Assembly: GCA_040954595.2 (NCBI GenBank)
Contig: CM082581.2
Location: forward strand, 5,820,699 to 5,884,698
Reading direction: 5' to 3'
Source: Balanoglossus misakiensis
Taxonomy: Eukaryota; Animalia; Hemichordata
Length of the DNA stretch: 64,000 nt
The position numbers were made by a program, and so were the translations under genes. Positions 1 to 36,242 of this stretch are shown piece after piece (the first letter of the stretch is position 1; each line of letters starts with the position of its first letter). The notes under the pieces are model-generated. The model saw nothing but the letters and a program-made list of their open reading frames with translations, did no database searches and was not told the origin of the DNA.

Positions 1-173
1 CGCTTATTTTACTATAATGAGGTTGCGCATTTGCATGTTCTTTGACTCCTGTCCATGTTTTATGCTGTTTGCTGAGATTAGTCATTATGGATTTTTGCAT
101 AAACTGAAGAGTTGCCATTTACACAGCAAAACTGCCCCTTGTATGAGTAAATTGACTTTTCGCTTTTTTCAGG

Positions 174-360
174 ATGACTAACATCACTGTTGTGCTGCTG
201 CTGTTCGTGTTTGTTAGAACCTCCACCACGCAAGACACCCGGGCCGGTGCAGACCAGTGCCTCAGTATTTGTCCGGAGTCATGGCCGGATACAAGGCGAC
301 CAGTTGGACCACCAGGCCCCCCAGGGACACCCGGCATTTCCGGTCCAGTTGGAAGACAGG
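174..360 (+). CDS. Collagen-C1q domain protein copy 1, coding exon 1 (signal peptide, CLSIC cysteine pair, start of Gly-X-Y); spliced product about 279 aa
   Basis: ATG follows acceptor ttttttcag|G. Hydrophobic N-terminus MTNITVVLLLFVFVRTSTTQ, then GPPGPPGTPGISGPVGRQ. Donor G|gtaaga at 361, phase 1. Confidence 0.9.
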
Positions 361-665
361 GTAAGACTGATCCCCGAAAAAATGAGTTTCATGTTACAGT
401 GAGTTCAGGAAAAAAACATTTGGTGCCGAAAACAGCCATGAACTGCTTTCTTATTAGAATTGGGTGTGTTCCTAAATTTACCATTTTTTTTTTCAAAACA
501 CCTTTATTTAGTCAAATGGGTGTCCACACGTAAAAATTCGCCATGGTCATTCGATGGCTTGGACACACTTTGACCATATATAGGCATATATGTTGTACTT
601 CCCTTAAAACGTGTACCAATGGGAGTTGGTGGTATAATTGTTGAAGCCTCTCTCCCACTTTGTAG

Positions 666-755
666 GTCAGCCTGGTGTGATTGGTCCCGTTGGTACTCAA
701 GGGGTCAAAGGTGAACCTGGTGAGAAAGGCGATGTTGCTGTCAATGGAGATAAAG
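666..755 (+). CDS. Collagen-C1q copy 1, exon 2 (90 bp, collagen with Gly->Ala interruption)
   Basis: ttgtag|GT CAG CCT GGT ... GAT AAA G|gtatt. Encodes [30 protein letters not shown], phase 1-1. Confidence 0.88.
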
Positions 756-1040
756 GTATTGTCTTTAACACTTTTGTATTAAGCAGCCGTTAATTGCAAT
801 ACGACCAAATTCTGCTGTTGGATAAGATTACAATTTTAGTCTGAAAAGCATGGTGAGAAATAGGCTGACATCTTTATATATCCTTTTTGTGTAATGGAAT
901 ATATATTTTTCATTTATTATTAATTATTATGCACTACATGCATTTAGTTAGTTACTGCTTGTTTTTAATACACCATTTTATCAGAATCCAGGATTCAAAA
1001 AGTTTGATGAAGTGTTCTCCCGTCTCTTCACAATGTTTAG

Positions 1041-1603
1041 GTGAATCTGGGGTTAGAGGTCAAACTGGGCATCCTGGGAAAATTGGTCCACAAGGTCCAA
1101 AGGGTGAGAGCGGTGAAAATGGAACTGATGGTGCTTCAGGTGGACCTGGAGTACCAGGGGTCAAGGGTCAGAAAGGTGAAACTGGCGAAGTGCAACAAGC
1201 AAAGGTGGCATTCACTGTGGGAAGGCATGATGGTTTAGAAGGGACCAGTTCTGAGCAAACTGTCACGTATCGTAATGCCATATTAAACGCAGGTGCAAAT
1301 ATCAATCTCGACACAGGTGTGTTTATCTGTGAGGTTCCTGGCATCTATTACTTCTCTTTCACATTCCGTTCATATTCCGGTACAGCAATTGATGTACACC
1401 TTAAACAGAATGGTTTCGGCATGTTTAAAATTTATTCCGGTAGCGATTCAGACTTCACTTTGCAATCTCAGAGTGGTATGTTACACCTGAACCGAGGTGA
1501 TGAAGTCAAACTAGTGCTACCTGGTAGTACCAATTACAGATTTTTCTATTGTGGTGGTATTCCTTGTAACATCTTCAGTGGGTTCCTAATCTACGCCGAC
1601 TAA
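1041..1603 (+). CDS. Collagen-C1q copy 1, exon 3 (collagen + gC1q domain)
   Basis: tttag|GT GAA TCT. Gly-X-Y run followed by gC1q motifs [34 protein letters not shown] and FSGFLIY. TAA at 1601-1603. Confidence 0.93.
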
Positions 1604-1805
1604 ACACCACAGTAAATTCATGTTATCCGCATATTAGAAAGTTGGGATCGTGTCCAGGTTGGTTATAATAATCGGTAAATTATAATTAAGAAAAAATAAT
1701 TAAGTAGTGATTTGTGTGAAAAGAGATGGCGAACACCCTATTTTTATAGGTTTTCGAATAGACTTCGTACGTTGTTTTACTATAGCACACAAGTGAAAGG
1801 TTTGA

Positions 1806-2372: not shown

Positions 2373-2842
2373 TTAATTGACTGTCATTTGTTTTCTTCTG
2401 AAACTCTGTCTCCGAGGCACGTACCACCTTAACAAGTGCATGATCTTTCTTTCTGAATATTGCTTCAGCTGTTACAGTTCTGATGCAAAGATTGATGTGG
2501 TCTACTACCGAAAACGAGGCAGTCTTAAGACTATTGCATCGGAAAGGTTATTGTGTTTCAGTTTACCAATGGATGTAGCTTGTATTAATCTGTAAGTTGC
2601 TAATCATGCAAATAAAAACACGGAATGAAATTTCAACCGACTTGGCGTTTACTTCACTAGTGTCATGGAGACATCAACCATGTCTCCACTTGCAAATTTT
2701 TATGATCTAAAAATATTGTACCAGTTCGAACTCGTATCAAATCAAGTCAATATTAATTCCGAAAGATATATCCTCAATGTTGAGGATAAGGTGTGATTTG
2801 TACTGTTATTTCTATGCTTCAACAGTATTCAAATGATAATTA

Positions 2843-5800
2843 AAGCTGCAAGCAGCGTTGGCGGGGCACAAGCGGTTCCCATGGTAACCAGCGAATCCCA
2901 AAGCTGTATCTGCTGTGGATACCAAGATATGGGAAAGAAGGTCAAAGGTCACCTGAGCACACCCAAATTTGGGCAAAACATTTTGACACCATACTTGTCC
3001 ATGACCAACAAAAACCAAACCTCTAGCCCTATTGGTTAGCCTGGAATTAGATATGTGCATAATAAATGAGGTAACATATAAGACTCCAAAAGGTGTTCAA
3101 TCCCTCCAAATGCCAAGGCTCTATCCTGTCTGGATGCCGAGATATAGGAAAGAAGGTCAAAGGTCACCTGAGGTCACCCAAATTTGAGCAAAACATTTTG
3201 ACACCATACTTGACCAACCATGACCAACAAAAACCAAACCTCTAGCCCTGTTGGTTAGCTTGGAATTAGATATGCGCATAATTAATGAGGTATTGTGTAA
3301 GACTCTATTATGTGGCTGTAACTGTTCTGGATGCTGAGATATGGGGAAAGTAGGTCAAAGGTCACTCAAAATTTGGGCATAAAATTTTGACCCCATAGTG
3401 GGCCATGTCCAACAAAAACCAGACCTGTAGCCCTATTGGTTAGCCTGGAATTAGATATGCAGAAAAATGATGTATCAGTAATAGGTCAAAGGTCATTGCC
3501 AAAATATTTGTGTCAGGTCCTGGCAGCATAATTAATTGGTACCCATGTCCACAAAATTCATGACTGTGGTGCTTTTACAAGAGGAGGTATGGGGAATATG
3601 CATATATAATTAGTTGGTTTAAAACTGGGTCAAAGGTCATGTGAAATTTGCCCCCCAAAATTGTGACAAGTTCCGGTCATATGATGACTCCACTAAAATA
3701 ATTTCCGTGCTGTCAACATTTTGGCTACAAAACGGAATTTTCACTTTTCAAACCTTTCACTTGTGTGCTATAGTGGCCGCCATAATGATCAACTAATCAC
3801 AATGCGCTTCGCAAACTTGATAGACATGTGTTAGGTGACCACATACCTCAAATCCCGAGACTCAGCAGTTGCCGGTTCTGGAGAAGTAGATTTTTAAAGT
3901 TTTCATGAGTTTTTTTCGAAAATTCAATATGGCGGCCAAAGTCACGTGACCCGCTCGAGATTTTATTGTCAAACTTTGAAGGGCAGAGGACATGTATACT
4001 ACACACCAAATTTGAACTTGATTGGCCCTGTAGTTTTTGAGAAGAAGTCGTTTAAAGGTTTTCAGGAAATCCAATATGGCCGCCAGGTCACGTGACTAAT
4101 TAAACGAGCCGCTGCATGTCTACTCATTGGCCCCTATCACCCTACCAAGTTTTAGCCCCTTAGGTGCTGCGGTTTTCCAGATCTGCCTGATTCCAGGTGA
4201 TCATAGCTTAACTATGGAAAGTATAGACCTATAGCTTGGTCCAAAGGCCATAAAAATATGGGAAAAATATTAGAAAAATCTTCTTCTCAAAATCGACATG
4301 GTCTAGGACCTTCACATTTGGCATAAAGTATCTTGGCCATATGGTGTACAAAGTTTGCGAAAATAATTCAAGTGCTGCCATTCATATTCAAATAAGGGTC
4401 ATTTAAACCCTGCACGTCTACTCATTGGCCCCTATCACCCTACCAAGTTTCAGCCCCCTAGGTGCTGTGGTTTTCCAGATCTACCTGGCCCGAATTTCTC
4501 GGGAGAATAATAATAAAGAAATATAGCTGTGAACAGCAATAAGTGGGTTTCGAGACACTGCTAGTCCTATTGGTTCGCCTGGAGATAGATATGTGCATAT
4601 TTAATCAGTCAAGGTGTAGGATGTGGGAAAGTAGGTCATACGGCATGTGAGGTCACCCTAAATATGAGCAGAAAATTTTGACACTATACTGGTCCATGTC
4701 CAACAAAAACCACACATCTAGCCCTATTGGTTCGCCTGTAATTAGTTATGCACATAGTTAAATAGGTGTCACAGGTGACCCCAATATATTGCTTTTCATT
4801 ATGGTCCAAACCCTCCAAACGCTAACGCTCTACCTGCTCTGGATGCCGAGATATGCGAAAGTAGGTCAAAGGTCACCAAAGGTCACCCTAAATTTGGGCA
4901 AAAAGTTTTGACCCCCATACTAGTCCAGGTCCAACAGAAACAAGACCTCTAGCCCTATTGGTTTGTCTGAAATTAGATATGCGCATAATAAATTATGTAA
5001 AGTGTAAGACTCCATTAATAGTTCGATCCATCCAAACACAAATGCTGTACCTGTTCTGGATGCCGAGATATAGGAAAGTAGGTCAAAGGTCACCTGAGGC
5101 CACCCGAAAGTTGGGCAAACATTTTTGACCCCATACTAGTCCAGGTCCAACAAAAACCAGACCTCTAGCCCTATTGGTTCGCCTAGAATTAGATATGCAA
5201 ATAATTAATGAGGTAAAGTATAAGGCTCCATTAGGAGTTCCATGCCTCCAAATGCCAAGGCAGTATCTGCGCTGGTTGCCGAGATATGGTAAAGTAGGTC
5301 AAAGGTCACCTGAGGTCACCCAAAATTGGGCAAGACATTTTAATCCAATACTGGTCCATGTTCAACAAAAATCAAACCTCTAGCCCTATTGGCTAGCCTG
5401 GAATTAGGTAAGCACATAATTAATGAGATAAGCAGGTGTCACAGGTGACCCCCAATTTTGTCTTTTCAATTTTAGTCACAACCCTCCAAACGCCAAGTCT
5501 GTACCTGCTGAGGACGCCGAGTTATAGGAAAGTAGGTCAAAGGTCACCTGAGGTCACCCAAAATTTGGGAAAAAATTTTTGATCCCATACTGGTCCATGT
5601 CCCACAAGAACAAAACCTCTAGCCCTATTAGTTAGCCTGGAATTAGGTATGCACATAATTAATGAGTTAAGCAGGTGTTACAGGTGAGGCCAAAATTTTG
5701 CCTTTTATTGTGGTCCCATTCTGCTCACGGGCCAATAGAGAGTCACTGTACAGGACCATTGCACAGTCGACGTGGACATAGCGTCAAAGCTTAACTTTAG

Positions 5801-6425
5801 AAAGTATAGGCCCATGGCTGGGTCCAAAAATATGAAAAATAAAAACGTCTTCTTCTCAAAATAGACTTGGCCCACGGCCTTGACATTTGGCATGTAGGAC
5901 ACTGACCACATGGTCTGCAAAAATCGCTAAAAGAATTTTGATATCTCCATTCAAATTAGGCCCATTTGAAAACTTTGCCCATATATGGTCATCAGGTCAC
6001 ATGACTTATTAAACATTCACAAAGGTACTGCACCAGCTCCCATAGGCTTGCACCACTGAGATCTACCTGAGCAAAAAAACTACGCAAGAAAAAAAAAAAG
6101 ATGAAAAACCCCAGTAATACCAATAGGGCACAAGCCTGCTTGGCTTGTGCCCTAAAAACCCCAGTAATACCAATAGGGCACAAACCAGCTTGGCTTGTGC
6201 CCTAAAAAACTCCAGTAAAACCAATAGGGCACAAGCGCCTGAGGGCGCTTGTGCCCTAAAAAGAAGTAGAAGAAAAACCAGGATAATAATAGGGCACAAG
6301 CCTGTGGGGCTTGTGCCCTAAAAACAACACGATTTCAAGAGGGTTTTGAGACCCCTCTGGTCTCGAAACCCTAAAAATTCCAACAATACCAATAGGGGCA
6401 CAAGCCCGATAGGCTTGTGCCCCTA
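2843..6425 (-). mobile_element. Nest A of non-autonomous Helentron-like elements with internal ~200-240 bp satellite repeats
   Basis: Insertion relative to the empty site gataattactgattgggg at ~20130 and ~32351. 3' end has stem-loop GCTGC-AA-GCAGC (2845-2856) and subTIR GGGGCACAAGC (2863-2873) matching hairpin head 6393-6425. A second 3' end at ~4520-4556 (GGGTTTCGAGAC) matches head 6340-6373. Confidence 0.75.
6124..6425 (-). repeat. Stack of six ~31-34 bp hairpins (5' heads of nested elements) at ~50-60 bp spacing
   Basis: TAGGGCACAAGC-loop-GCTTGTGCCCTA at 6124, 6174, 6225, 6290 and 6393, plus a variant hairpin AGGGTTTTGAGACC...GGTCTCGAAACCCT at 6340. Confidence 0.9.
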
Positions 6426-6602
6426 ATTACTGATTGGGGCCCTATTCCAATTTAGGGCAACTGTCTGCCCTTGTGTTTCGTGCGAATAGCGCCACCCTCG
6501 ACGAATTTGTCTGTTCCCGCGTAAGTGAAATTGCAAATCGTTATCTGAAAAAGCGCCACCATTATGACACTGTCACCAAAGTACATGCAGTCTGGTCGCA
6601 GG

Positions 6603-6982
6603 TAGTCTAGAATCTATCCGTTCGTAGTCGCATTCACCCTACTACCGTCTAGGAACGCAGAACCAAAATCTAGTAAGGCCATAAAAATGGTAATTTGAAT
6701 GTGAATAGTCTCCAACTGAGCAGTCTGAAGTCAGAGAAGTCAATCACTTACGTTGACCGACTGGCAATGAGGTGATGACGTTGAATGTTAATTATGTTTA
6801 CAATGTAGCTCCGCCCCGAATGATACATAATCATGATCATGTGGTGACGCTTGACGTCAGATTGCTCAGTTGGAGACTATTCACATTCAAATTACCATTT
6901 TTATGGCCTTACTAGATTTTGGTTCTGCGTTCCTAGACGGTAGTAGGGTGAATGCGACTACGAACGGATAGATTCTAGACTA
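6603..6982. mobile_element. MITE with ~120-130 bp TIRs, TAG..CTA termini and 9-bp TSD (AcademH-like; MULE not excluded)
   Basis: TAGTCTAGAATCTATCCG... and ...CGGATAGATTCTAGACTA. TSD GGTCGCAGG at 6594-6602 and 6983-6991. Confidence 0.85.
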
Positions 6983-7773
6983 GGTCGCAGGGAGGGTAAT
7001 TAAGGCGGCGAGATCAAAGAGATCTATTTGAATGTGAACGTCACTGAGTGGCAGTTACCGCCGGTTCGAAAAATTTTCAAACGGAGATTTTCGGTACTAC
7101 AAGTGATCGTAGTGCATCCATTTTTCCAAGACGTGTATGAAACACCATAGTCAATGATAGGATGATTTTTCGTGAAGTTTTAACGACGCGTTCCCGAGAA
7201 AGACAGTTTCGGCATGTTGGTTGAAATTGTGGTCCCTGACTCTCGGAAAAGATTTCTTGTCTTGAAAAAAATTGGGTAGGTTAGGAAGATATTGAACTAA
7301 GTTACCGTAAAATTATAATGTTGTGAGCCGCTCCGTTGTGCAGTAATGGCGGTGTAAAAATTGCCTTCGCCATCGACGAGTACAGCCGTGTTATACCATA
7401 TGTGTATGCATTGAATTAGGTCAACGCATGTTGACCCATGACGTAATGGCTTCCTTTTCAACACTAAGTTAACTCTCATTAGCATATTACATACGGAGTC
7501 TATTCACTATCCAAGCTGACTAACTACTACAGGACTGACTATGGCACTGTAAATTGTGGTCCTTGACCCTCGGCATGGATATATTCAAAATTATGAATAG
7601 AGGAGTTTAATAATGTTTCTAAAACCTGAGGGGGTTAATTTTTGTGTGGGTATTGCTGATATTTTTTTTTTGATTTTTTAACTTCAAGGTCACTTTGAAT
7701 TTCGTGATCACAATTTTGTCAGTGGAAGTAAAGAAATTCTTCTTGATAAAACTTCATGAAAAATCACATGTAG

Positions 7774-8692
7774 TACACTCATAGTACCAGTAATGTGCCT
7801 GGGGTGAAATAATTGTCAGAAATGGGTTGCAAGTTGCCAAACTTCCGTTCTGAAAAAAGTTGAAAAACTGTATGCAAATGAGGAATTCAAACGTTACTGG
7901 CCAATTCAAGTGTTTGCATTGCATAATCCCCTGCTGTGTAATTACCCCAGTTGCGACCTGACTGTCGCCTCACACTGTATAAAAAAAACACGTCGCCGTT
8001 CCCTACATCTGATTTTAATCAAATTGTCTCGGCCCATGCACGATCTCAAACACATTGTACCAGTTTGATCTCATGTCAAGCTGTGTGGACACTAGAGAAT
8101 AATTATGGAACTGCAATGACAACGGTACAACCACGAATAAAGGCGGGTTCTGCATGAAAGGAAACGAAAGGTTGGGGAACTGGGCATCTGTTTACTGAAC
8201 CCAATACTTATTTTGTAAAAAAGATCAATGTGAAAATGGCGATTGGCGTGTGCTTTCACAGCATGCAGTGGTTTTACCGAGAGTTTCACATGTAAACTGA
8301 AACGTACCCAGATGAAATACACGGCTGGGGGTGGGGGGTGGGCAAACGTTTGGCTCGTGGTGATCTAAATTATTGCAAATGTGACAACATAAATATTTCA
8401 AGCTGTTACATTTCTGTTCAGTATGTTTACACTCTTTGTCAGAATACCAGCTGGTTACAATAAACGCGTCTTCAGTGAAATCAGAAAACAACTGGTTGAA
8501 CTTTCGGACCTCTTGAACTTGTCCAATGTGTTTCTTATTAGGGCCCAAGCCCAGCAGGCTTGGGCCCTATTGGTTTTACTGGGGTTTTTTAGGGCACAAG
8601 CCAAGCAGGCTTGTGCCCTATTGGTATTACTGGGGTTTTTAGGGTACAAGCCAAGCAGGCTTGTGCCCTATTGGTATTACTGGGGTTTTTCA

Positions 8693-8723
<31 letters not shown>

Positions 8724-11700
8724 CTTGTGTAGTTTTTTTGGCACAGGTAGATCTTGAAAACGGCTGAACCTACAAATCTCAAATTTGGCACAGTGGTGCA
8801 GGCCTATGGGAGCTGGTGCAGTACATTTGTGAATTTTTAATAAGTCATGTGACCTGATGACCATATATGGGGAAAGTTTTCAAATGGGCCTAATTTGCAT
8901 ATGAATGGAGATATCAAAATTCTTTTAGCAATTTTTGCGGACCATGTGGTCAGTGTCCTACATGCCAAATGTCAAGGCCTCGGGCCAAGTCTATTTTGAG
9001 AAGAAGACGTTTTTATTTTTCATATTTTTGGACCCAGCCATAGGCCTTTACTTTCTATTGTTAAGCTTTGACGCTATGTCCACGTCGACTGTGCAATGGT
9101 CCTGTACAGTGACTCTCTATTGGCCCGTGAGCAGAATGGGACCACAATAAAAGGCAAAATTTTGGGCTCACCTGTAACACCTGCTTAACTCATTAATTAT
9201 GTGCATACCTAATTCCAGGCTAACCAATATGGCTAGAGGTTTTGTTCTTGTGGGACATGGACCAGTATGGGATCAAAAAAATTTGCCCAAATTTTGGGTG
9301 ACCTCAGGTGACCTTTGACCTACTTTCCTATATCTCGGCATCCACAGCAGGTACAGACTTGGCGTTTGGAGGGTTGTGACAAAAATTGAAAAGCCAAAAT
9401 TGGGGGTCACCTGTGACACCTGCTGATCTCATTAATTATGTGCATACCTAATTCCAGGCTAGCCAATAGGGCCAGAGGTTTGATTTTTGTTGAACATGGA
9501 CCAGTATGGGTTTAAAATTTCTTGCCCAATTTTGGGTGACCTCCGGTGACCTTTGACCTACTTTACCATATCTCGGCAACCAGCGCAGATACAGCCTTGG
9601 CATTTGGAGGCATGGAACTCCTAATGGAGCCTTATACTTTACCTCATTAATTATGTGCATATCTAATTCTAGGCGAACCAATAGGGCTAGAGGTCTGGTT
9701 TTTCTTGGACCTGGACTAGTATGGGGTCATTTTTTTTGCCCAACTTTTGGGTGGCCTCAGGTGACCTTTGACCTACTTTCCTATATCTCGACATCCAGAA
9801 CAGGTACAGCATTTGTGTTTGGATGGATCGAACTATTAATGCAGTCTTACACTTTACATCATTAATTATGTGCATATCTAATTTCAGACAAAGCAATAGG
9901 GCTAGAGGTCTGGTTTCTGTTGGACCTGGACTAGTATGGGGGTCAAAACTTTTTGCCCAAATTTTTGGTGACCACATATGACCTTTGACCTTCGGCTTAA
10001 GCTTGTGCCCGTCATCGCTGCTTGCAGCTATATTTCATCTTTTTTTTTTTCTTGTGTAGTTTTTTTGCTCAGGTAGATCTTGAAAACGGCTGAACCTACA
10101 AATCTCAAACTTGGCACAATGGTGCAGGTCTATGAGAGCTCGTGCAGTACCCTCGTGAATGTGTAATTAGTCACATGACCTGATGACCATATATGGGCAA
10201 AGTTTTCAAATGGGCCTAATTTGCATATGAATGACGATATCAAAATTCTGTGCAATCATTTTGCGGACCATATGGTCAGTGTCCTACATGCTAAATTTCA
10301 AGGCTCTGGGCCAAGTCAATTTTGAGAAGAAGATTTTTAAATATTATATTTCATATTTTTTGGACCCAGCCATAGGCCTATACTTTCTATAGTTAAGCTA
10401 TGATGCTATGTCCACATCTGTGCAATGGTCCTGTACTGTGACTCTCTATTGGCCCGTGAGCAAAATGGGACCAAAATAAAAGGCAAAATTTTGGGCTCAC
10501 CTGTAACACCTGCTTAACTCATTAATTATGTGCATACCTAATTCTGGGCTAACTAATAGGGCTAGAGGTTTTGTGCTTGTGGGACATGGACCAGTATAGG
10601 GTAAAAAAAAATTGCCCAAATTTTGGGTGACCTCAGGTGACCTTTGACCTACTTTCCTATATCTCGGCATCCAGAGCAGGTACAGACTTGGCGTTTGGAG
10701 AGTTGGGACTAAAATTTAAAAGCCAAAATTGAGGGTCACCTGTGACATCTGCTTATCTCATTAATTATGTGCATACCTAATTCCAGGCCAACCAATAGGA
10801 CTAGAGGTTCGATTTTTGCTGAACATGAACCAGTATGGGGTCAACATTTCTTGCCCAAATTTTGGGTGACCTCAGGTGACCTTTGACCTACTTTCCTATA
10901 TCTCGGCATCCAGAGCAGGTACAGACTTGGCGTTTGGAGGGTTGGGACTAAAATTTAAAAGCCAAAATTGAGGGTCACCTGTGACATCTGCTTATCTCAT
11001 TAATTATGTGCATACCTAATTCCAGGCCAACCAATAGGACTAGAGGTTTGATTTTTGCTGAACATGAACCAGTATGGGGTCAAAATTTCTTGCCCAAATT
11101 TTGGGTGACCTCAGGTGACCTTTGACCTACTTTACCATATCTCGGCATGCACAGCAGCTACAGCCTTGGCATTTGGAGGGATGGAACTCCTGATGGAGCC
11201 TTACACTTTACCTCATTAATTATGCACATACATAATTGTAGGTGAACCAATAGGGCTAGAGGTTTTGCTCTTGTGGGACATGGATCAGTATGGGGTCAAA
11301 AATTTTGCCCAAATTTTGGGTGACCTCAGGCGACCTTTGACCTACTTTGCTATATCTTGACATCCAGAACAGGTACAGCATTTGTGTTTGGATGGATCGA
11401 ACTATTAATGGAGTCTTACACTTTACATCATTAATTATGTGCATATCTAATTTCAGACAAACCAATAGGGCTAGAGGTCAGGTTTCTGTTGGACCTGGAC
11501 TAGTATGGGGGTCAAAACTTTTTGCCCAAATTTTGGGTGACCACATATGACCTTTGACCTTCGGCTTAAGCTTGTGCCCGTCATCGCTGCTTGCAGCTAT
11601 ATTCTTCTACTTCTTTTTCTTGTGTAGTTTTTTTCGTCAAGTACATCTTGAAAACAGCTGAACCTACAAATCTCAAACTTGGCACAATGGTGCAGGCCAA

Positions 11701-14700
11701 TGAGAGCATGAGTTGTACCCTTGTGAATGTTTAATTAGTCACATGACCTGATGACCATATATGGGCAAAGTTTTCAAATGGGCCTAATTTGCATATGAAT
11801 GATGATATCAAAATTCTGTGCAATCATTTTGCGGACCATATGGTCAGTGTCCTACATGCTAAATTTCAAGGCTCTGGGCCAAGTCAATTTTGAGAAGAAG
11901 ATTTTTAAATATTATATTTCATATTTTTTGGACCCAGCCATAGGCCTATACTTTCTATAGTTAAGCTATGATGCTATGTCCACATCTGTGCAATGGTCCT
12001 GTACTGTGATTCTCTATTGGCCCGTGAGCAAAATGGGACCAAAATAAAAGGCAAAATTTTGGGCTCACCTGTAACACCTGCTTAACTCATTAATTATGTG
12101 CATACCTAATTCTGGGCTAACTAATAGGGCTAGAGGTTTTGTGCTTATGGGACATGGACCAGTATAGGGTAAAAAAAAATTGCCCAAATTTTGGGTGACC
12201 TCAGGTGACCTTTGACCTACTTTCCTATATCTCGGCATCCAGAGCAGGTACAGACTTGGCGTTTGGAGGGTTGGGACTAAAATTTAAAAGCCAAAATTGA
12301 GGGTCACCTGTGACACCTGCTTATCTCATTAATTATGTGCATACCTAATTCCAGGCCAACCAATAGGAATAGAGGTTTGGTTTTTGCTTAACATGAACCA
12401 GTATGGGGTCAAAATTTCTTGCCCAAATTTTGGGTGACCTCAGGTGACCTTTGACCTACTTTACCATATCTCGGCATGCACAGCAGCTACAGCCTTGGCA
12501 TTTGGAGGGATGGAACTCCTGATGGAGCCTTACACTTTACCTCATTAATTATGCACATACATAATTGTAGGCGAACCAATAGGGCTAGAGATTTTGTTCT
12601 TGTGGGACACGGACCAGTATGGGGTCAAAATTTCTTCCCCAAATTTTGGGTGACCACTTATGACCTTTGACCTTCGGCTTAAGCTTGGGCCCGTCATCGC
12701 TGCTTGCAGCTATATTTAATGAAGAGATCACTTCGTACTTATTATACCTGGTAAAAATCTAAAAACGGATAATACCGCCCAAGGGGAACCAATTTGTTCT
12801 GAGAAAAACATGTTTTTTTTTTCTCAAACGCATAAGGCCAATATTTTCACACTTTTGTAATGTAAAGGCAAATAATATTCTCACAATTGACTGGCAACAT
12901 TTTTTTTTTCAATCGACTGAAGTCAAATGTTCCACCCTGATGGGTAACCTAGTCTGAATCAGTTCTTTTTATAGTAAAGATTAGATCGTAAATCGTCCTT
13001 TTCGTTCAGTACTTCACATACACGGTGAGATATATTTATTAAATATCAAAAATGCGTTTCTTTTTGCCGTCATTGTCCTGGCCTTCAGCTATTAGGAGCA
13101 ATTTACTTTAAACTCAGTCATTACGGGCAAGATTTGACTTTTGACGCCCGCTGTAGTATTAGCGGTGTATACATGTATATTACCTTTAAAAATTAGTTTA
13201 AAATTTCAGCGGCAAGCCTTATTATTTCTGAGAACAGCGGTTCAAACGAAACAGACTATTAAACGCTTGTCTTCATGCTGTCTTCATCAAAACTCTGAAA
13301 TCGGCGGGGAAAGGTCGACAAACTTGCAAACAAGACACTATGCAGCCATCTCATACACTCATAGTACCAGTAATGTGCCTGGGGTGAAATAATTGTCAGA
13401 AATGGGTTGCAAGGTGCTAAACTTCCGTTCTGAAAAAAGTTGAAAAACTGTATGCAAATGAGGAATTCAAACGTTACTGGCCAATTCAAGTGTTTGCATT
13501 GCATAATCCCCTGCTGTGTAATTACCCCAGTTGCGACCTGACTGTCGCCTCACACTGTATAAAAAAAACACGTCGCCGTTCCCTACATCTGATTTTAATC
13601 AAATTGTCTCGGCCCATGCACGATCTCAAACACATTGTACCAGTTTGATCTCATGTCAAGCTGTGTGGACACTAGAGAATAATTATGGAACTGCAATGAC
13701 AACGGTACAACCACGAATAAAGGCGGGTTCTGCATGAAAGGAAACGAAAGGTTGGGGAACTGGCCATCTGTTTACTGAACCCAATACTTATTTTGTAAAA
13801 AAGATCAATGTGAAAATGGCGATTGGCGTGTGCTTTCACAGCATGCAGTGGTTTTACCGAGAGTTTCACATGTAAACTGAAACGTACCCAGATGAAATAC
13901 ACGGCTGGGGGTGGGGGTGGGCAAACGTTTGGCTCGTGGTGATCTAAATTATTGCAAATGTGACAACATAAATATTTCAAGCTGTTACATTTCTGTTCAG
14001 TATGTTTACACTCTTTGTCAGAATACCAGCTGGTTACAATAAACGCGTCTTCAGTGAAATCAGAAAACAACTGGTTGAACTTTCGGACCTCTTGAAATTG
14101 TCCAATGTGTTTCTTATTAATGAAGAGATCACTTCGTACTTATTATACCTGGTAAAAATCTAAAAACGGATAATACCGCCCAAGGGGAACCAATTTGTTC
14201 TGAGAAAAACATGTTTTTTTTTCTCAAACGCATAAGGCCAATATTTTCACACTTTTGTAATGCAAAGGCAAATACTATTCTCACAATTGACTGGCAACAT
14301 TTTTTTTCAATCGACTGAAGTCAAATGTTCCACCCTGATGGGTAACCTAGTCGGAATCAGTTCTTCTTTTAGTAAAGATTAGATCGTAAATCGTCCTTTT
14401 CGTTCAGTACTTCACATACACGGTGAGATATATTTATTAAATATCGAAAATGCGTTTCTTTTTGCCGTCATTGTCCTGGCCTTCAGCCATTAGGAGCAAT
14501 TTACTTTAAACTCAGTCATTACGGGCAAGATTTGACGTTTGACGCCCGCTGTAGTATTCGCGGTGTATATGTTACCTTTCAAAATTAGTTTAAAATTTCA
14601 GCGGCAAGCCTTATTATTTCTGAGAACAGTGGTTCAAACGAAACAGACTATTAAACGCTTGTCTTCATGCTGTCTTCATCAAAACTCTGAAATCGGCGGG

Positions 14701-14740
14701 GAAAGGTCGACAAACTTGCAAACAAGACACTATGCAGCCA
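7774..14740 (+). repeat. ~1.39 kb tandem duplication (copy a 7774-8538 + 12717-13348, split by nest B; copy b 13354-14740)
   Basis: Both start tacactcatagtaccagtaatg and are near-identical. A third, partial homologue lies at ~21023-22150. Confidence 0.9.
8539..12716 (+). mobile_element. Nest B: three nested Helentron-like elements (outer 8539-12716, middle ~8590-11603, inner ~8640-10034)
   Basis: Inserted at T|T of tttcttat|taatgaag (empty site at ~14111). Three hairpin heads (8539, 8590, 8640) and three tails GCTTG(G/T)GCCC-GTCATC-GCTGCTTGCAGC-TATATT (10001, 11570, 12683). Only the outer pair carries the GGGCCC variant. Confidence 0.85.
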
Positions 14741-15388
14741 GCTCTGCAACCGATTGTTGATTGGTTACGCCCGCACTCACCATAACTTCCATATACGGCA
14801 TAAATTTCACGAAAACGTTTACGCTTCGCGAACAATGGGCAGGTACCAAGCAGATGGGGGAGGGTATTTCTTCATTAATGATACATTCAAATAACTAGTA
14901 GCCCCAGTTACTATTATTTTTGAGGTTAAATTTTAACGTTATAAACAAGTAAAAGTTGAATACTTCTGCTCAATTTGTATGTCGTTAAGTTTGAACAAAA
15001 CTTATCGTGTTGTCAAATCCTTAGAAAACGATTCCCTCCCTTCTCTAGTAATGTGCGGTACTAACATTTCAGTATTTATTGAACATATCTTCACTTACTA
15101 ATCCATTGCCGTGAGAGCTTTGACAGAGGCAACAAGTTCCACAAGGACGCGAACACAAAACTGTCCAACGTTCTGAGAAGAGAAAGCAGTACACGTAGGA
15201 GATTAATTTTGAAGATTTCAAATGAGCTTAAGGTATGTGATGATTTTCTCCGAAATGTAGCACCCATGCATATAAATTCTTCGCTAAATTTCCGTTGAAC
15301 ACGATTGGAAGTTTTTCTTTGGATAATTGCGTTTGTGAGAGAGAACACATTACGTGATAATAGTACACTGGCCAAATGAATGACACTT

Positions 15389-16860
15389 TCTCCCTATATA
15401 CTCACTTTCACATCGCAACATAGGGACCACGTACCATTAAAATATGCAGTAAGGAATTGATTTTTATCCGCCATTACCAAATTAGGGATTGTTCAATTAT
15501 GACTGCCGGAATGGATTGGTAAACTCCGGGGGTGGGGGTTGCGTCTTAAAATATGACATTTAAAGGTTGTACGTTTATACACATACGTGCATGAAACGGA
15601 GATGACTCGCTTAATTTTCGCAGCTAAGTTAAATCTACTGCATATTACTTATGGAGTAAGTATTGCTGGTCAATCAATCTTTATAATTTATCACTGTGAT
15701 ACATAGAGAGTAATAGAATCTCACACTCCCAAGGACCTGGGATCGTATTTCTCACATGAGTTGGGGATTTTTTGTCCCACACGAGCCGCAGGCGAGTGTG
15801 GGACAAAATATCCCCGACGAGTGTGAGAAATACGATCCCAGGTCCTTGGTGTGTGAGATTCTTTTTCTCACACGACCAGAAATTTGCGATATTAACGTTT
15901 ATTTACAATAAAAGCACTAAATCTATAAAATACCAACTGATAACTGCATGTCCAGTCATATGTTGATCCGCCCCGCAAAACATAGTCCCCATTTCATCAC
16001 GAGTTTACAGTACACACATGCTACAAAAATGTGCTCAACACATTAAAATATTGAGACTGTTTCCAGTGGCATAAATTCGCGCGATATCTAGAAAATACAA
16101 CCGTTTTTTTAGTCTGTCGCCAACCACGTACACCACTGTCGTCTGCACATGACCTGATCACATTGTAGTTCGGGTTTGTGTACAACTTGTGTTCTACACA
16201 TCACACAATTGGATAATATTTGCTCATTCTGAGGGGTATGAATATCATATTATCCAATCAGAGCTCGTGTCAGATAACAGTTGTCTGTGTGCGCATTAAC
16301 ACAGAGTGTGGGATCAATTTTATCCCACACTCTCTATCCCACTCTCCCAGCGGCCAGGAGTGTGAGAAAGTGTGATACAATGTAAACTAATAAGTGAAGT
16401 ATTGCACATTTGTTTACCGAGTACCAAGCGGAAGGGAAACAACTGGAACGATTCTCCCTATATACTCACTTTCACATCGCAACATAGGGACCACGTACCA
16501 TTAAAATATGCAGTAAGGAATTGATTTTTATCCGCCATTACCAAATTAGGGATTGTTCAATTATGACTGCCGGAATGGATTGGTAAACTCCGGGGGTGGG
16601 GGTTGCGTCTTAAAATATGACATTTAAAGGTTGTACGTTTATACACATACGTGCATGAAACGGAGATGAGTCGCTTAATTTTCGCAGCTAAGTTAAATCT
16701 ACTGCATATTACTTATGGAGTAAGTATTGCTGGTCAATCAATCTTTATAATTTATCACTGTGATACATAGAGGGAGTGTGATACAATGTAAACTAATAAG
16801 TGAAGCATTGCACATTTGTTTACCGAGTACCAAGCGGAAGGGAAACAACTGGAACGATTC
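15389..16860 (+). repeat. ~405 bp tandem duplication upstream of copy 2 (first copy interrupted by the 15711-16369 insertion)
   Basis: tctccctatatactcactttcacatcg ... ctggaacgattc occurs at 15389-16453 and 16454-16860, but only once upstream of copy 3. Confidence 0.85.
15711..16369. mobile_element. ~660 bp non-autonomous insertion with a ~146 bp terminal palindrome (family uncertain, possibly Crypton-like)
   Basis: Absent from homologues at ~16770 and ~23120. Imperfect palindrome 15716-15861 centred on CACGAGCCGCAGGCGAGTG. Subterminal IR TCTCACACTCC / GGAGTGTGAGA. No clear TSD. Confidence 0.65.
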
Positions 16861-17046
16861 AAATTTGGTACATCGCTTATTTTACTATAACGAGGTTGCG
16901 CATTTGCATGTTCTTTGACTCCTGTCCATGTTTTATGCTGTTTGCTGAGATTAGTCATGATGGGTTTTTGCATAAACTGAAGAGTGGCTATTTACACAGC
17001 AAAACTGCCCCTTGTATGAGTAAATTGACTTTTCGCTTTTTTCAGG

Positions 17047-17233
17047 ATGACTAACATCGCTGTTGTGCTGCTGCTGTTCGTGTTTGTTAGAACCTCCACC
17101 ACGCAAGACACCCGGGCCGGTGCCGACCAGTGCCTCAGTATTTGTACGGAGTCATGGCCGGATACAAGGCGACCAGTTGGACCACCAGGCCCCCCAGGGA
17201 CACCCGGCATTTCCGGTCCAGTTGGAAGACAGG
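17047..17233 (+). CDS. Collagen-C1q copy 2, coding exon 1; product about 283 aa
   Basis: Near-identical to 174-360. Donor G|gtaaga. Confidence 0.9.
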
Positions 17234-17536
17234 GTAAGACTGATCCCCCCAAAAATGATTTTCATGTTACAGTGAGTTCAGGAAAAACTTGACGCCAATA
17301 AACAGCCATGGATTGCTTTCTTACTAGAATTGGGTGTGTTCCTAAATTTACAATTTTTTCAAAACACCTTTATTATTTTAGTCAAATGGGTGTCCACACG
17401 TAAAAATTCGCCATGGTCATTCGAAGGCTTGGACACACTTTTTACCATATATAGGCATATATGTTGTACTTCCCTTAAAACGTGTACCAATGGGAGTGGG
17501 TGGTATAATTGTTGAAGCCTCTCTCCCACTTTGTAG

Positions 17537-17635
17537 GTCAGCCTGGTGTGATTGGTCCCGTTGGTACTCAAGGGGTCAAAGGTGAACCTGGTGAGAAAGG
17601 CGAGAAGGGCGATGTTGCTGTCAATGGAGATAAAG
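17537..17635 (+). CDS. Collagen-C1q copy 2, exon 2 (99 bp, extra GEK triplet)
   Basis: ttgtag|GT CAG ... GAG AAA GGC GAG AAG GGC GAT ... AAA G|gtatt. Confidence 0.88.
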
Positions 17636-17922
17636 GTATTGTCTTTAACACTTTTGTATTAAGCAGCCGTTAATTGCAATACGACCAAATTCTGCTGTTG
17701 GATAAGATTACAATTATAGTCTCAAAAGCATGGTGAGAAATAGGCTGACATCTTTATATATCCTTTTTTGTGTAATGGAATATACATTTTTCATTTATTA
17801 TTAATTATTATGCACTACATGCATTTATATAGTTACTGCTTGTTTTTAATACAACATTTTATCAGAATCCATGATTCAAAAAGTTTGATGAAAGTGTTCT
17901 CCCGTCGCTTCACAATGTTTAG

Positions 17923-18488
17923 GTGAATCTGGGGTTAGAGGTCAAACCGGGCATCCTGGGAAAATTGGTCCACAAGGTCCAAAGGGTGAGAGCGGTGAAA
18001 ACGGGACTGATGGTGCTACAGGTGGACCTGGACTACCAGGGGTCAAGGGTCAGAGAGGTAAAACTGGCAAAGTGCAACAAACTAAGGTGTCATTCACTGT
18101 GGCAAGGCAGAGCGGTTTAGTAGGGAACGGTTCAGAGCAAACTATCACGTATACAAATGCCATATTCAAGGAAGGAGCAAATATCAATCTCGATTCAGGT
18201 GTGTTTACCTGTGAGGTTCCTGGCATCTATTACTTTTCTGTCACATTACGTTCAAATTACGGCAAAAACATTGATGTACAGCTGAAACAGAATGGTGTCG
18301 GCATGTTTAGAATTTATTCCGGTATCTATTCAGACAACACTTTGCTATCTCAGAGTGGTATGTTACACCTGAACCGAGGTGATGAAGTCAAACTAGTGCT
18401 ACCTGGTAGTATCATTTACGGATTTCTCTATTGTGCTGGCGGTATTCCCTGTAACACCTTCAGTGGGTTCCTTATCTATCCCGACTAA
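17923..18488 (+). CDS. Collagen-C1q copy 2, exon 3 (collagen + gC1q)
   Basis: tttag|GT GAA TCT. Open frame continues into ORF 18072-18488, ending FSGFLIYPD*. Confidence 0.93.
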
Positions 18489-19057
18489 ACACCACAGTAA
18501 ATTCATGTTATCCGCATATTAGAAAGTTGGGATCGTGTCCAGGTGGGTTATAATAATCGGTAATTTTAATTTGAAAAAAGACATTCGAGTAGAGCTTCTT
18601 CAGTTTGATTAAAAGCCACTTTGCAACATCGCCTTTGACATTGTACAATTCAAAGATAATAGTTAATTAAAAGAGAATTTTGTCTTATCCAAAAATTCCA
18701 CGACCCACAAAGTTCTTTGATTACTTTGCTTCATTTCGTTAATAGTAAGTGTATACTTTTAACAGATCCAAACGACCATCTTGTTAAGTTAGTGTGTGCC
18801 TCGAATATAAGCTTTGAACTTGTTCTCGTATTTTTTCAAGGTACCTTTAAAATTGGGTTTCACCGCGAAAAACTAAACAGAGAGCGAGCCAAATTGTCTA
18901 ATATTTGAAATCCAAAATGGCCGCCAATCACTGCATTAAGTCTGAGGGGAAACATTAATAAAGTAGTGATTTGTGCGAAAACGAGATGGTGAACACCCAA
19001 TTTAATTTTTTAAAATAGACTTCTTATTTTACTATAGCACACAAGTGAAAGATTTAA

Positions 19058-19314: not shown

Positions 19315-19531
19315 TTAATTGACTGTCATTTGTCTCTTCTGAAACTCTGTCTCCGAGGCGCGTACCACCTTAACAAGTGCATGTTCTTTCTTTCTGAATA
19401 TTGCTTCAACTGTTACAGTTCTGATGCAAAGATTGATGTGGTCTACTACAGATAACGAGGCAGTCTTAAGACTATTGCATCGGAGAGGTTATTGTGTTTC
19501 AGTTTACCAATATCAATGTAGCTTGTATTTA

Positions 19532-19878
19532 AGGGACAAAGTCTCTCTCTCGCTGCCCTTTTTTCCATTAAGTATATTTGATACAAGACAACGTTTGTTA
19601 TTCTACATGTCGATATATAGTGAATGAACATTCAACTACACACAACTTCCATCCCTCTTATAGACAGGAGAGTGAAAAAACTCGCCAAAATGAATAATCG
19701 TTCTTTACCATTTATTCATTTTGGTCGAGTTTTTACTCTCATATCATACAAGTGGGATGGAAGTTTTGTGTGGTTGATCATTGATTCACTATATATCCAC
19801 ATTTACATTAACATACCCAGTGTCTTGTATCAAACATAGTTAATTGAAAAGGGGCAGCTGGAGAGAGACTTTGTCCCT
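19532..19878. mobile_element. Kolobok-like MITE specific to the copy 2 flank
   Basis: TIR AGGGACAAAGTCTCTCTC / GAGAGAGACTTTGTCCCT, flanked by TTTA and TTAA. Empty site gcttgtaTTAAtctg at ~2580 and ~32095. Confidence 0.8.
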
Positions 19879-22800
19879 TTAATCTGTAAGTTGCTAATCA
19901 TGCAAATAAAAACACGGAATGAAACAACAACCGACTTGGCGTTTACTTCACTATTGTCATGGAGACATCAACCATGTCTCCACTTGCAAATTTTCATGAT
20001 CTTAACAATTTTGTACCAGTTCGAACTCGCATCAAATCAAGTCAATATTAATTCCGAAAGATACATCCTCAATGTTGAGGATATGCTGTGATTTGTACTG
20101 TTATTTCTATGCTTCAACAGTCTTCAAATGATAATTACTGATTGGGGCCCTATTCCAATTTAGGGCAACTGTCTGCCCTTGTGTTTCGTGTGAATAGCGC
20201 CACCCTCGACGAATATGTCTGTTCCCGCGTAAGTGAAATTGCAAATCGTTATCTGAAAAAGCGCCACCATTGTGACACTACCACTAAAGTACATGTACAT
20301 GTATACAGATTTTTACAGTTTCGGGCGTTATCTTTTTCACTGCGCCCTCTAGAAAAGTTGAATACTTAGTCGCAACGGCCTGTACATTATCAATCAACCA
20401 GAGGAACGTTTTCACTTGGAGACATTGCACCTATGCAAATTTAAACACTGTTACCATGGAAAATAGCCAATCACAGATATTCAGCAGGTGGCATACGAGA
20501 AAAGAGTGCGCCAACATATCAGCGGTCATTCGAACACTAAATAAGTCACGCCGTATTGACTGTATATAGGCATCATAAGTAAATTAGAGATGACTGTATA
20601 CCTTTAATACAACCAACCTTAGTTTGCACATAATAATAGTTCTTATCAGCGCATTATGCTGAAAGCTTGAACTTTACACACAAAAAAATATATATATAGT
20701 GTAAAATGACAAACAGTTAAAAATCGATGAAAAGGAAGGTTATGAGTTGAGTTTTGAAAGGTCCAATTGAAGTATCGGATTTCCATGATTAGAGACCTGC
20801 AACAGAGAAAGCCCGTTCACCATAAGGCTGCGTGAATTCAAAATTATGTTTGACGTCACCTCAAGACCCCAAAACCTATGAAGGGGGTGGTTTACAAAAC
20901 AAAGCCTTGTAAAATTTAAAAAAACCCGGATAATATCACCCAAGATGAGCTAATTTGTTATGAGAAAATCTTTTTTTTCATACGCATAAGAGCGCTTAAG
21001 GCGAAAATTTAAACACGTTTCTTGGCCCATACACGATCTCAAACACATTGTACCAGTTTGATCTCATGTCAAGGCGTGTGGACACTAGAGAATAATTATG
21101 GAACTGCAATGACAACGGTACAATCACGAATAAAGGCGGGTTCTGCATGAAAGGAAACGAAAGGTTGAGGGACTGGGCATCTGTTTACTGAACCAAATAC
21201 TTATTTTGTAAAAAAGATCAATGTGAAAAAATGGCGATTGGCGTGTGCTTTCACAGCATGCAGTGGTTTTACCGAGAGTTTAACATGTAAACTGAAACGT
21301 ACATACCCAGATGAAATACACGGCTGGGGTGGGGGGTGGGCAAACGTTTGGCTCGTGGTGATCTAAATTATTGCAAATGTGACAACATAAATATTTCAAG
21401 CTGTTACATTTCTGTTCAGTATGTTTACACTCTTTGTCAGAATACCAGCTGGTTACAATAAACGCGTCTTCAGTGAAATCAGAAAACAACTGGTTGAACT
21501 TTCGGACCTCTTGAAATTGTCCAATGTGTTTCTTATTAATGAAGAGATCACCTCGTACTTATTGCAACCTTGTAAAAATCTAAAAACGGATAATACCGCC
21601 CAAGGGGAACCAATTTGTTCTGAGAAAAACATGTTTTTTTTCAAACGCATAAGGCCAATATTTTCACACTTTTGTAATGTAAAGGCAAATACTATTCTCA
21701 CAATTGACTGGCAACATTTTTTTTCAATCGACAGAAGTCAAATGTTCCACCCTGATGGGTAACCTAGTCGGGATCAGTTCTTTTTATAGTAAAGATTAGA
21801 TCGTAAATCGTCCTTTTCGTTCAGTACTTCACGTACGCGGTGAGATGTATTTATTAAATATCGAAAATGCGTTTCTTTTTGCCGTCACTGTCCTGGCCTT
21901 CAGCTATTAGGAGCAATTTACTTCAAACTCAGTCATTACGGGCAAGATTTGATGCTGTAGTATTCGCGGTGTATATGTTACCTTTCAAAATTAGTTTAAA
22001 ATTTCAGCGGCAAGCCTTATTATTTCTGAGAACAGCGGTTCAAACGAAACAGACTATTACTAGTAAACGCTTGTCTTCATGCTGTCTTCATCAAAACTCT
22101 GAAATCGGCGGGGAAAGGTCGACAAACTTGCAAACAAGACACTATGTCGCCAGCTCTGCAGCCGATTGTTGATTGGTTACGCCCGCACTCACCATAACTT
22201 CCATATACGGCATAAATTTCACGAAAACGTTTACGCTTCGCGAACAATGGGCAGGTACCAAGCAGATGGAGAGGGTATTTCTTCATAAATGATACATTCA
22301 AATAACTAGTAGCCCCAGTTACTATTATGTTTGAGAGTTAAATTTTAAAGTTGTAAACAAGTAAACGTTGAATACTTCTGCTCAATTTGTATGTCGTTAA
22401 GTTTGAACAAAACTTATAGTGTTGTCAAATCCTTAGAAATCGATTCCCTCCCTTCTCTAGTAATGTGCGGTACTAACATTTCAGTATTTATTGAACATAT
22501 CTTCACTTACTTATCCATTGCCGCGAGAGCTTTGACAGAGGCAACAAGTTCCACAAGGACGCGAACACAAAACTGCCCAACGTTCTGAGAAGAGAAAGCA
22601 GTACACGTAGAAGATTAATTTTGAAGATTGCAAATGAGCTTAAGGTATGTGATGATGTTCTCCGAAAAGTAGCACCCATGCATATAAATTCTTCGCTAAA
22701 TTTCCGTTGAACACGATTGGAAGTTTTTCTTTGGATAATTGCGTTTGTGAGAGAGAACACATTTCGTGATAATAGTACACTGGCCAAATGAAGGACACTC

Positions 22801-23379
22801 TCTCCCTATATACTCACTTTCACATCGCAACATAGGGACCACGTATCAATCAAAATATGCAGTTAGGAATTGATTTTTATCCGCCATTACCAAATTAGGG
22901 ATTGTTCAATTATGACTGCCGGAATGGATTGGCAAACTCCGGGGGTGGGGGGTTGCGTCTTAAAATATGGCATTTCAAGGTTGTACGTTTATACACATAC
23001 GTGCATGAAACGGAGATGAGTCGCTTAATTTTCGCAGCTAAGTTAAATCTACTGCATATTACTTATGGAGTAAGTATTGCTGGTCAATCAATCATTATAA
23101 ATTATCACTGTGATACATAGAGAGAGAGTGTGATACTGTGTAAACTAATGAGTGAAGTATTGCACATTTGTTTACCGAGTACCAAGCGGAAGGGAAACAA
23201 ATGGAACTTATTTTACTATAATGAGGTTGCGCATTTGCATGTTCTTTGACTCCTGTCCATGTTTTATGCTGTTTGCTGAGATTAGTCATGATGGGTTTTT
23301 GCATAAACTGAAGAGTGGCCATTTACACAGCAAAACTGTCCCTTGTATGAGTAAATTGACTTTTCGCTTTTTTTTCAGC

Positions 23380-23560
23380 ATGACTAACATCGCTGTTGTG
23401 CTGCTGCTGTTCGTGTTTGTGAGAACCTCCACCACGCAAGACACTAGTGCAGACCAGTGCCTCAGTATTTGTACGGAGTCATGGCCGGATACAAGGGGAC
23501 CAGTTGGACCACCAGGCCCCCCAGGGACACCCGGCATTTCCGGTCCAGTTGGAAGACAGG
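23380..23560 (+). CDS. Collagen-C1q copy 3, coding exon 1; product about 280 aa
   Basis: tttttcag|C ATG ACT AAC. 6 nt shorter than copies 1/2 (TQDTSADQ). Donor G|gtaaga. Confidence 0.9.
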
Positions 23561-23869
23561 GTAAGACTGATCCCCGAAAAAATGAGTTTCATGTTACAGT
23601 GAGTTCAGGAAAAACTTGACGCCAATAAACAGCCATGAATTGCTTATTGCTAGAATTGAGTGTGTTCCTAAATTTACCATTTTTTTCGAAACACCTTTAT
23701 TTAGTCAAAAGGTTTTCAATGGGTGTCCACACGTAAAAATGCGCCATGGTCATTCGAAGGCTTGGACACACTTTTGACCATATATAGGCATATATGTTGT
23801 ACTTCCCTTAAAACGTGTACCAATGGGAGTGGGTGTTATAATTGTTGAAGCCTCTCTCCCACTTTGTAG

Positions 23870-36188: not shown

Positions 36189-36242
<54 letters not shown>

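What the first reader, a model, noticed from the sequence alone, without database searches (positions are those of the whole stretch)
8539..12716. Nest B: complete matryoshka of three Helentron-like elements, each inserted ~50 bp inside the previous one's 5' end
Seen: three heads (8539, 8590, 8640) and three tails (ending ~10034, ~11603, 12716) balance like parentheses. Removing 8640-10034 restores ...ggggttttt|catctttttt..cttgtgtag, the same junction that is intact in the inner element. Removing 8590-11603 restores ...ggggtttttt|cttctacttc.... The GGGCCC subTIR variant occurs only in the outermost head and outermost tail, showing head-tail covariation. The outer target is T|T with no TSD. Inference: each element carries its own preferred landing pad behind its head. 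This gives a self-homing 'safe harbour' system that grows satellite arrays without hitting new host DNA. An independent nest 2 kb away follows the same rule. This is the strongest candidate for an undescribed system in the window.
Basis: partly seen in the sequence, partly recalled or inferred. Interest (0 to 1): 0.82.

Follow-up and report, generated by a model that had tools for sequence, protein, structure and literature searches.

The report
Self-nesting rolling-circle transposons, three deep
Three small non-coding repeat elements sit one inside the next, each about 50 bases behind the front end of its host, likely because they are rolling-circle transposons that favour T-rich landing sites and carry such a site themselves; similar self-insertion was proposed before in fungi, so this is a clear animal example rather than a new system.

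Summary
The nest is real. Three heads and three tails balance. Two empty paralogous copies of the outer site lie in this window, so the ends are exact and no target duplication exists beyond an ambiguous TT. The anatomy is Helitron2/HLE2 non-autonomous; I found no transposase, so 'Helentron' is unproven. Relatives in animal DNA from metagenome contigs behave alike: of 88 distinct tail junctions, 9 lie in another element's pad, 14 abut a head, 65 lie elsewhere (none seen in an element body). Those 65 flanks are T-rich on one strand, and a matrix built from them puts 81-99% of an element's target weight on its pad. So a carried landing pad is supported, largely as plain sequence preference. Beyond that, 11 of 13 stacked heads sit 18-22 nt past the host hairpin, which may mean head-guided targeting, but genome-wide contigs show later sites in use too. 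'Safe harbour' is overstated: most insertions hit host DNA, and nest A (six heads, two tails) has collapsed. Self-insertion near the 5' end was proposed for Fusarium Helitrons in 2016. This scan noted similar nests elsewhere in this genome (seven notes seen, unchecked). New variant; interest 0.45.

The parts
8539..8589 (+). Head of outer element B1: 31-nt hairpin with GGGCCC-type 5' subTIR, then 20-nt spacer ending in a T-run
8590..8639 (+). Head of middle element B2 (GGGCAC type), inserted at +51 of B1
8640..10034 (+). Inner element B3, intact, 1395 bp, inserted at +50 of B2; head with private GGGTAC change, pad with a 29-T run, unique 5' block, four 215-239-bp monomers, tail
8671..8739 (+). 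Intact T-rich pad of B3 (the unused landing site)
10001..10034 (+). Tail T3: 10-nt subTIR, 12-nt palindrome, end
10035..11603 (+). Remainder of B2: right half of pad, body with five monomers, tail T2 (subTIR 11570-11579). Mosaic: ends B3-like, middle B1-like
11604..12716 (+). Remainder of B1: right half of pad, body with three monomers, tail T1
12683..12716 (+). Tail T1: GGGCCC-type subTIR 12683-12692 (24 nt from the end), palindrome 12699-12710
14108..14127 (+). Empty paralogue of the outer site (tandem duplicate of the host segment)
21527..21546 (+). Second empty paralogue of the outer site
2839..6425 (-). Nest A: six heads (6425, 6373, 6320, 6258, 6204, 6154), two tails (ending 4520, 2839); the two tails match heads Hb and Ha; four tails missing
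20124..20144 (-). Empty paralogue of nest A's outer site (another at about 32345-32365)

Best explanation
Three non-coding elements of 1164, 1619 and 1395 bp lie one inside the next at +51 and +50 of the host's 5' end; they are likely non-autonomous Helitron2-type rolling-circle transposons that arrived by successive insertions, likely because the family prefers a one-strand T-rich target and each copy carries such a tract just behind its front hairpin. Shown: nesting, exact ends, no target duplication, head-tail matching, distinct subfamily bodies, the same junction classes in relatives, T-rich one-strand target flanks. Inferred: movement by a RepHel enzyme supplied in trans via a circular intermediate; pad choice mainly by sequence; same orientation as a by-product of the one-strand target; later collapse of nests by recombination between the shared internal monomers (nest A). 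Each insertion leaves the host's head and tail intact and brings a fresh pad, so stacking can repeat, but most insertions still go to host DNA.
For: Empty paralogues for both outer insertions. 5' unique blocks of B1, B2, B3 are 90.8-96.4% identical, and B3 is closer to nest A's inner element (96.3%) than to B2 (92.4%), with 3, 5 and 4 monomers. Hb pairs 11 nt with Tb only, H1 10 nt with T1 only. Reconstructed sites are TTAT|T and TAAT|T in host DNA and TTTT|T or TTTT|C in pads, matching Helitron2 (TTTT|T/C) and FoHeli1/2 (TNAT|T) as printed. Relatives: 96 tails kept of 103; 10 in pads (9 distinct), 19 head-adjacent (14), 66 other (65), 1 too short; none of the 66 matched an element body. 'Other' flanks: 495 T against 180 A of 885 bases at +2..+16, 282 against 258 of 870 at +61..+75 (59 flanks). 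The matrix from them gives the pad 81%, 98% and 99% of the target weight of B1, B2, B3. Full two-level nests in L050 and L054. Contigs of the sample show tail-to-pad joints at three positions in the pad, at depths 270-1968 against 122-184 for the host flank.
Against: No RepHel gene in the window, in the metagenome loci or linked through paper supplements. The matrix comes from other animals, treats positions as independent and sees only 3' flanks that begin with T. It ranks the sites actually used only 3rd to 8th within their pads and scores B1's host site poorly (-3.8), so sequence alone does not predict the exact site. In relatives the pad share ranged from 2% to 99% across six elements. Without the genome the expected share of pad hits could not be computed. 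B2 is a mosaic, so recombination or conversion has also acted.
Confidence: 0.6

Rival explanations
1. Head-guided homing: the transposase binds the resident 5' hairpin or subTIR and inserts at the first suitable T-site about 19-22 nt downstream, so position and not only sequence sets the site. This adds to the best explanation rather than replacing the nesting.
For: 11 of 13 stacked heads lie 18-22 nt past the host hairpin (others 25 and 31) although hairpins are 31-75 nt long and spacers differ (7 window, 6 relatives, of which L050 and L055 are probably one locus). In 5 of 5 nests with both sides known the site is +19..+22, which holds 0.045, 0.205, 0.949, 0.057 and 0.108 of the pad's matrix weight. 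3 of 19 tail-head junctions join unlike subfamilies. Nest A's outer site has a head-like 7-bp stem 27 nt upstream.
Against: The 18-22 window was chosen after seeing the data; tracts may have lengthened after insertion, adding downstream sites. The best-supported tail-to-pad joints in run X2 lie 4 nt further on or in the later T-run (table 5c; 14 rows not shown). Only 1 of 9 host-DNA left flanks folded better than shuffles at p=0.05. The T-rich tract begins near +18 in these families, so its 5' edge is a natural site.
Confidence: 0.27
2. The third level is not an insertion: a two-element nest gained a tandem head duplicate and, separately, a duplicated or recombined pad-body-tail unit.
For: H2 and H3 differ by one base; T2 and T3 are nearly identical; B2's middle matches B1 (40 sites against 2 in columns 201-700) while its last 220 nt match B3 (32 against 3).
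Against: Needs two events that break at the same base. B2's pad and first 100 columns are B3-like, not B1-like (8 against 1), which unequal crossover between sister nests would not give. The B2-type interior is multi-copy (contig 10204-10362, no differences, depth 3739 against 105 for the flank).
Confidence: 0.06
3. The elements are moved by a tyrosine recombinase (Crypton-like, microsatellite-targeting) through short homology at the ends rather than by rolling circle.
For: Some CryptonV families are reported to insert in microsatellites (PMC8869645 passage). Nest A's outer element is flanked by a 5-bp direct repeat present once in the empty site. Relatives' target flanks show (TAT)n-like periodicity (positions chosen post hoc).
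Against: Nest B junctions share only TT. Cryptons are described as lacking inverted repeats and having 4-6-bp direct repeats (PMC3212892 passages), whereas these carry asymmetric inverted repeats and two hairpins as in Helitron2. A 22-bp box in B1 and B2 is also in oyster Cg_HINE central repeats.
Confidence: 0.07

Closest known systems
Helitron2 / HLE2 non-autonomous elements (Bao and Jurka 2013, PMC3627910, passages; Li et al. 2024 HELIANO, PMC11417382, passages)
   Same: 5' inverted repeat at the very end folding into a hairpin, 3' copy 24 nt from the end just before a small palindrome, insertion at TTTT|T/C or T|T, no target duplication.
   Different: No autonomous partner shown here; the passages read do not describe ordered self-nesting or a carried target.
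FoHeli1/2 of Fusarium oxysporum (Chellapan et al. 2016, PMC5148889, passages and section 10; follow-up PMC13342296, passages)
   Same: End in ATATTTT, target TNAT, copies with repeated first 31-85 nt explained by self-insertion; up to five 5' termini.
   Different: There mostly several heads with one tail and the nest is the inferred intermediate; here all three tails survive, and a T-rich pad is tied to the target preference.
HINE / DINE-1 and oyster Cg_HINE (Thomas et al. 2014, PMC4067079; PMC7492417; passages, supplements searched for one motif)
   Same: subTIR + IR + microsatellite + central tandem repeats + subTIR + palindrome; T-rich target; a shared 22-bp box with the Cg170-type repeats.
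   Different: Oyster microsatellites are mostly GTCY-type, not T-rich; mite 3' subTIRs are 12-15 bp and 38-60 bp from the end (here 10 bp and 24 nt); nesting at the microsatellite is not reported in the passages read.
Tandem TE dimers by insertion-site preference (McGurk and Barbash 2018, PMC5932611, passages); microsatellite-targeted SaTar MULE arrays (PMC5907723, abstract)
   Same: Target preference makes repeated insertion at one place and can seed arrays.
   Different: Those are side-by-side arrays at a host target; here the target lies inside the element and gives nests.

Membership tests
Helitron2/HLE2 (non-autonomous) | 5' ATIR 0-2 bp from the 5' end, forming a hairpin | tested here: met
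   definition
Helitron2/HLE2 (non-autonomous) | [quoted passage not shown] | tested here: met
   10 nt, 24 nt from the end
Helitron2/HLE2 (non-autonomous) | 3' palindrome or hairpin | tested here: met
   Present in all three tails, but only a 4-bp stem and no more stable than shuffles (z 0.35-0.78)
Helitron2/HLE2 (non-autonomous) | No target-site duplication; insertion at T|T or TTTT|T/C | tested here: met
   Empty paralogues and reconstructed pads; the split of terminal T's between the ends is ambiguous
Helitron2/HLE2 (non-autonomous) | No coding capacity; microsatellite and central tandem repeats (HINE layout) | tested here: met
   Only one 124-codon stop-to-stop frame of at least 120 touches the nest; repeats
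Helitron2/HLE2 (non-autonomous) | Autonomous RepHel partner sharing the termini | tested here: inconclusive
   None in window, metagenome loci, L103-L104 or supplements; no genome held
Helentron sensu stricto | Endonuclease domain fused to RepHel in the partner | not testable with these tools
   No partner sequence obtained
Helentron sensu stricto | subTIR of at least 11 bp, 3' copy 38-60 bp from the end (mite HINEs) | tested here: not met
   10 nt perfect match, 24 nt from the end in nest B; 11 nt for Ha/Ta and Hb/Tb
Crypton | 4-6-bp terminal direct repeats, no terminal inverted repeats | tested here: not met
   Only TT shared at nest B; inverted repeats present; a 5-bp repeat does flank nest A's outer element
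Crypton | Tyrosine recombinase partner | not testable with these tools
   No partner sequence obtained

The most novel reading that the evidence does not exclude
A widespread animal HLE2 lineage has evolved true self-homing: the enzyme docks on a resident 5' hairpin and inserts about 20 nt downstream into a tract that copies its own target consensus, leaving both host ends intact; subfamily-specific head-tail pairing would even let an outer pair carry a whole nest as one unit.
Probability: 0.27. Interest if true: 0.72.

Novelty: new variant of a known kind. Interest (0 to 1): 0.45.

Why it matters
How HLE2 elements choose targets and which end starts copying are open. Intact nests with exact empty sites turn the 2016 self-insertion proposal into something countable and give a defined substrate (hairpin, about 20-nt spacer, T-tract) for a transposition assay. 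They also warn that head stacks and apparent satellites in animal assemblies can be nested transposons, which affects repeat annotation. If the hairpin guides insertion, this would be a eukaryotic DNA transposon that carries its own programmable landing site.

Tried and rejected
No whole genome is held, so the genome-wide site table was not possible. Tail-motif scans of viral contigs found 0; of prokaryote genomes 0, then 2, one a chance bacterial match and one an animal-type stretch inside a bacterial MAG contig without RepHel. No Rfam family in 2500-15000. A general hairpin upstream of host sites was not found (1 of 9). The reads are Logan contigs of one sample that may be the assembly's source; no listed piece spans the nest, depth is not copy number, and they could not give the nested fraction. 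The joint 8637-10033 (depth 2348) is not independent, since B3 holds the same junction. Same orientation was rejected as evidence of homing because the target is one-stranded. The tail motif was absent from supplements of PMC4067079 and PMC11417382 and PMC7492417, with one chance hit in PMC3627910, whose files 13 and 14 were not searched; figures with terminal sequences are not held, and Repbase could not be consulted. Full-text search for the motif gave 3 unrelated papers. Seven of 103 metagenome tails were dropped before counting (L011, L034, L037, L041, L070, L079, L088: bacterial-looking contigs or no family context).

Full report
Observation. The window is animal DNA with a duplicated C1q/collagen gene cluster. 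Heads begin at 8539, 8590 and 8640 and tails end at 10034, 11603 and 12716. My script used 12714 for the outer end by mistake; one search corrects it. Removing inner elements gives B1 1164 bp, B2 1619 bp and B3 1395 bp. The host segment is duplicated, so two empty copies of the outer site are in the window (14108-14127, 21527-21546) and equal the joined flanks base for base. The element adds three T's whose split between its ends is ambiguous; there is no other duplication. The flanks differ from the nearest empty copy by 4 of 764 and 13 of 627 bases, so the nest likely arrived after that duplication.

Insertion, not duplication. The 5' unique blocks are 90.8-96.4% identical, and B3 is closer to nest A's inner element (96.3%) than to B2 (92.4%). 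Monomer counts are 3, 5 and 4. H1 pairs over 10 nt with T1 and 5 nt with T2 and T3; H2 the reverse; H3 has a private change and pairs over 6 nt. Covariation therefore tests outer against inner only. Against a simple history, B2 is mosaic: B3-like in its first 100 columns (8 sites against 1) and last 220 nt (32 against 3), B1-like in columns 201-700 (40 against 2).

Nest A (2839-6425, minus) has six heads at offsets 52, 53, 62, 54 and 50 and two tails. The tails match Hb (11 nt; 3-4 with others) and Ha, and the outer site has empty copies near 20134 and 32355. Four tails are missing; the inner body runs from B-type monomers into more distant monomers and ends in Hb's tail. I infer a deletion between shared monomers, so nests shrink as well as grow.

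Family. The layout fits Helitron2 as defined by Bao and Jurka (passages) and the HINE layout (passages). Targets are TTAT|T and TAAT|T in host DNA and TTTT|T or TTTT|C in pads. Fusarium FoHeli1/2 end in ATATTTT and target TNAT followed by T in the figure legend or A in the text. A 22-bp box at 10320 and 11888 also occurs in oyster Cg_HINE arrays (5 matches in the window at up to 3 mismatches, 0.01 expected). I found no transposase, so the class rests on anatomy and target; an unchecked scan note reports an intact enzyme gene in another nest of this genome.

Relatives. One scan of metagenome contigs with a 20-base tail motif gave 103 matches; I dropped 7 and classified 96: 19 abut a head, 10 continue into pad remainder plus body, 66 other, 1 too short; 14, 9 and 65 distinct. 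Three pad calls rest on weak library hits, but L050 and L054 show full head-head-body-tail-pad-body nests and L097 matches their flanks. None of the 66 matched an element body (only families in the set are detectable). Of the 19 tail-head junctions, 16 match at 8 or more of 10 subTIR bases, as rolling-circle tandems would; 3 do not. The hosts are not identified, the motif demanded a T after the end, and repeat junctions collapse in such assemblies.

Why the pad. The 'other' flanks are T-rich on the element's strand for about 15-20 nt (495 T, 180 A of 885; 282 and 258 of 870 further out; 59 flanks after removing 6 pure ATT tracts). A matrix from 65 flanks gives the pad 81-99% of the target weight in B1-B3 and 2-99% in six relative elements. 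Counting only the 5-base core, the pad holds 9-33% of sites. So extended sequence preference can explain pad over body and the shared orientation. In the sample's contigs, tails join the pad at the first T-run (depth 414), 4 nt further (554, 440) and in the later T-run (270, 1968, 1212), against 122-184 for the host flank; 14 rows were not shown. Nesting is thus multi-copy and uses several sites.

What sequence does not explain. 11 of 13 stacked heads lie 18-22 nt past the host hairpin across hairpins of 31-75 nt, and in the 5 nests with both sides known the used site ranks 3rd to 8th by the matrix, with a product of window weights of 5e-5 (5e-4 with a flatter matrix). The window was chosen post hoc, the matrix is borrowed, tracts can lengthen later, and the contig joints show later sites are common. 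This leaves head guidance open at about 0.27.

What is known. Chellapan et al. 2016 describe FoHelis whose first 31-85 nt are repeated and propose self-insertion (passages and section 10); a 2026 follow-up counts up to five 5' termini (passages). Preference-driven tandem dimers (passages) and microsatellite-targeted arrays (abstract) are general precedents. My searches (open-access library only) showed no paper on balanced HLE2 nests in animals or on the pad matching the target. The scan's notes list seven similar nests in this genome, unchecked. That such repeats are common in fish is my recollection, not a call result.

Verdict. Real, cleanly bounded nest; likely non-autonomous Helitron2-type elements; carried pad supported; exclusive safe harbour and novelty of self-insertion not supported. 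New variant of a known kind, interest 0.45.

Noticed in passing
window 1-1700, 16874-18579, 23207-24911, 29932-31137: Four tandem paralogues of a collagen + C1q-domain gene; the duplicated intergenic DNA supplies the empty sites.
   Followed up: partly
window 6453-6470 (minus): A 7-bp stem that mimics the head's terminal arm lies 27 nt before nest A's outer insertion; downstream of 12800 it recurs only in the two empty paralogues.
   Followed up: partly
window 6603-6982, 15708-15869, 19527-19883, 34396-34823: Long self-complementary (fold-back) stretches of 160-430 bp, 80-94% identical arms; possibly MITEs.
   Followed up: no
window 3877-3898 and 4035-4056: The Cg170-type 22-bp box occurs in reverse orientation inside the body of nest A's outer element.
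   Followed up: no
window 60119-60736 (minus): Open frame that reads like the first exon of an Emx homeobox gene (name recalled; no Pfam hit).
   Followed up: partly
L104:1-10022: A bacterial MAG contig holds this animal-type tail and retroelement-like frames next to bacterial genes, likely a chimeric or contaminated contig.
   Followed up: partly
L053:1003, L058:1264, L071:1112 (tail-oriented coordinates): Tail-to-head junctions between unlike subfamilies, which rolling-circle concatemers would not give.
   Followed up: partly
window 36075-36358, 42986-43458, 45275-45432: Long tetranucleotide microsatellites.
   Followed up: no
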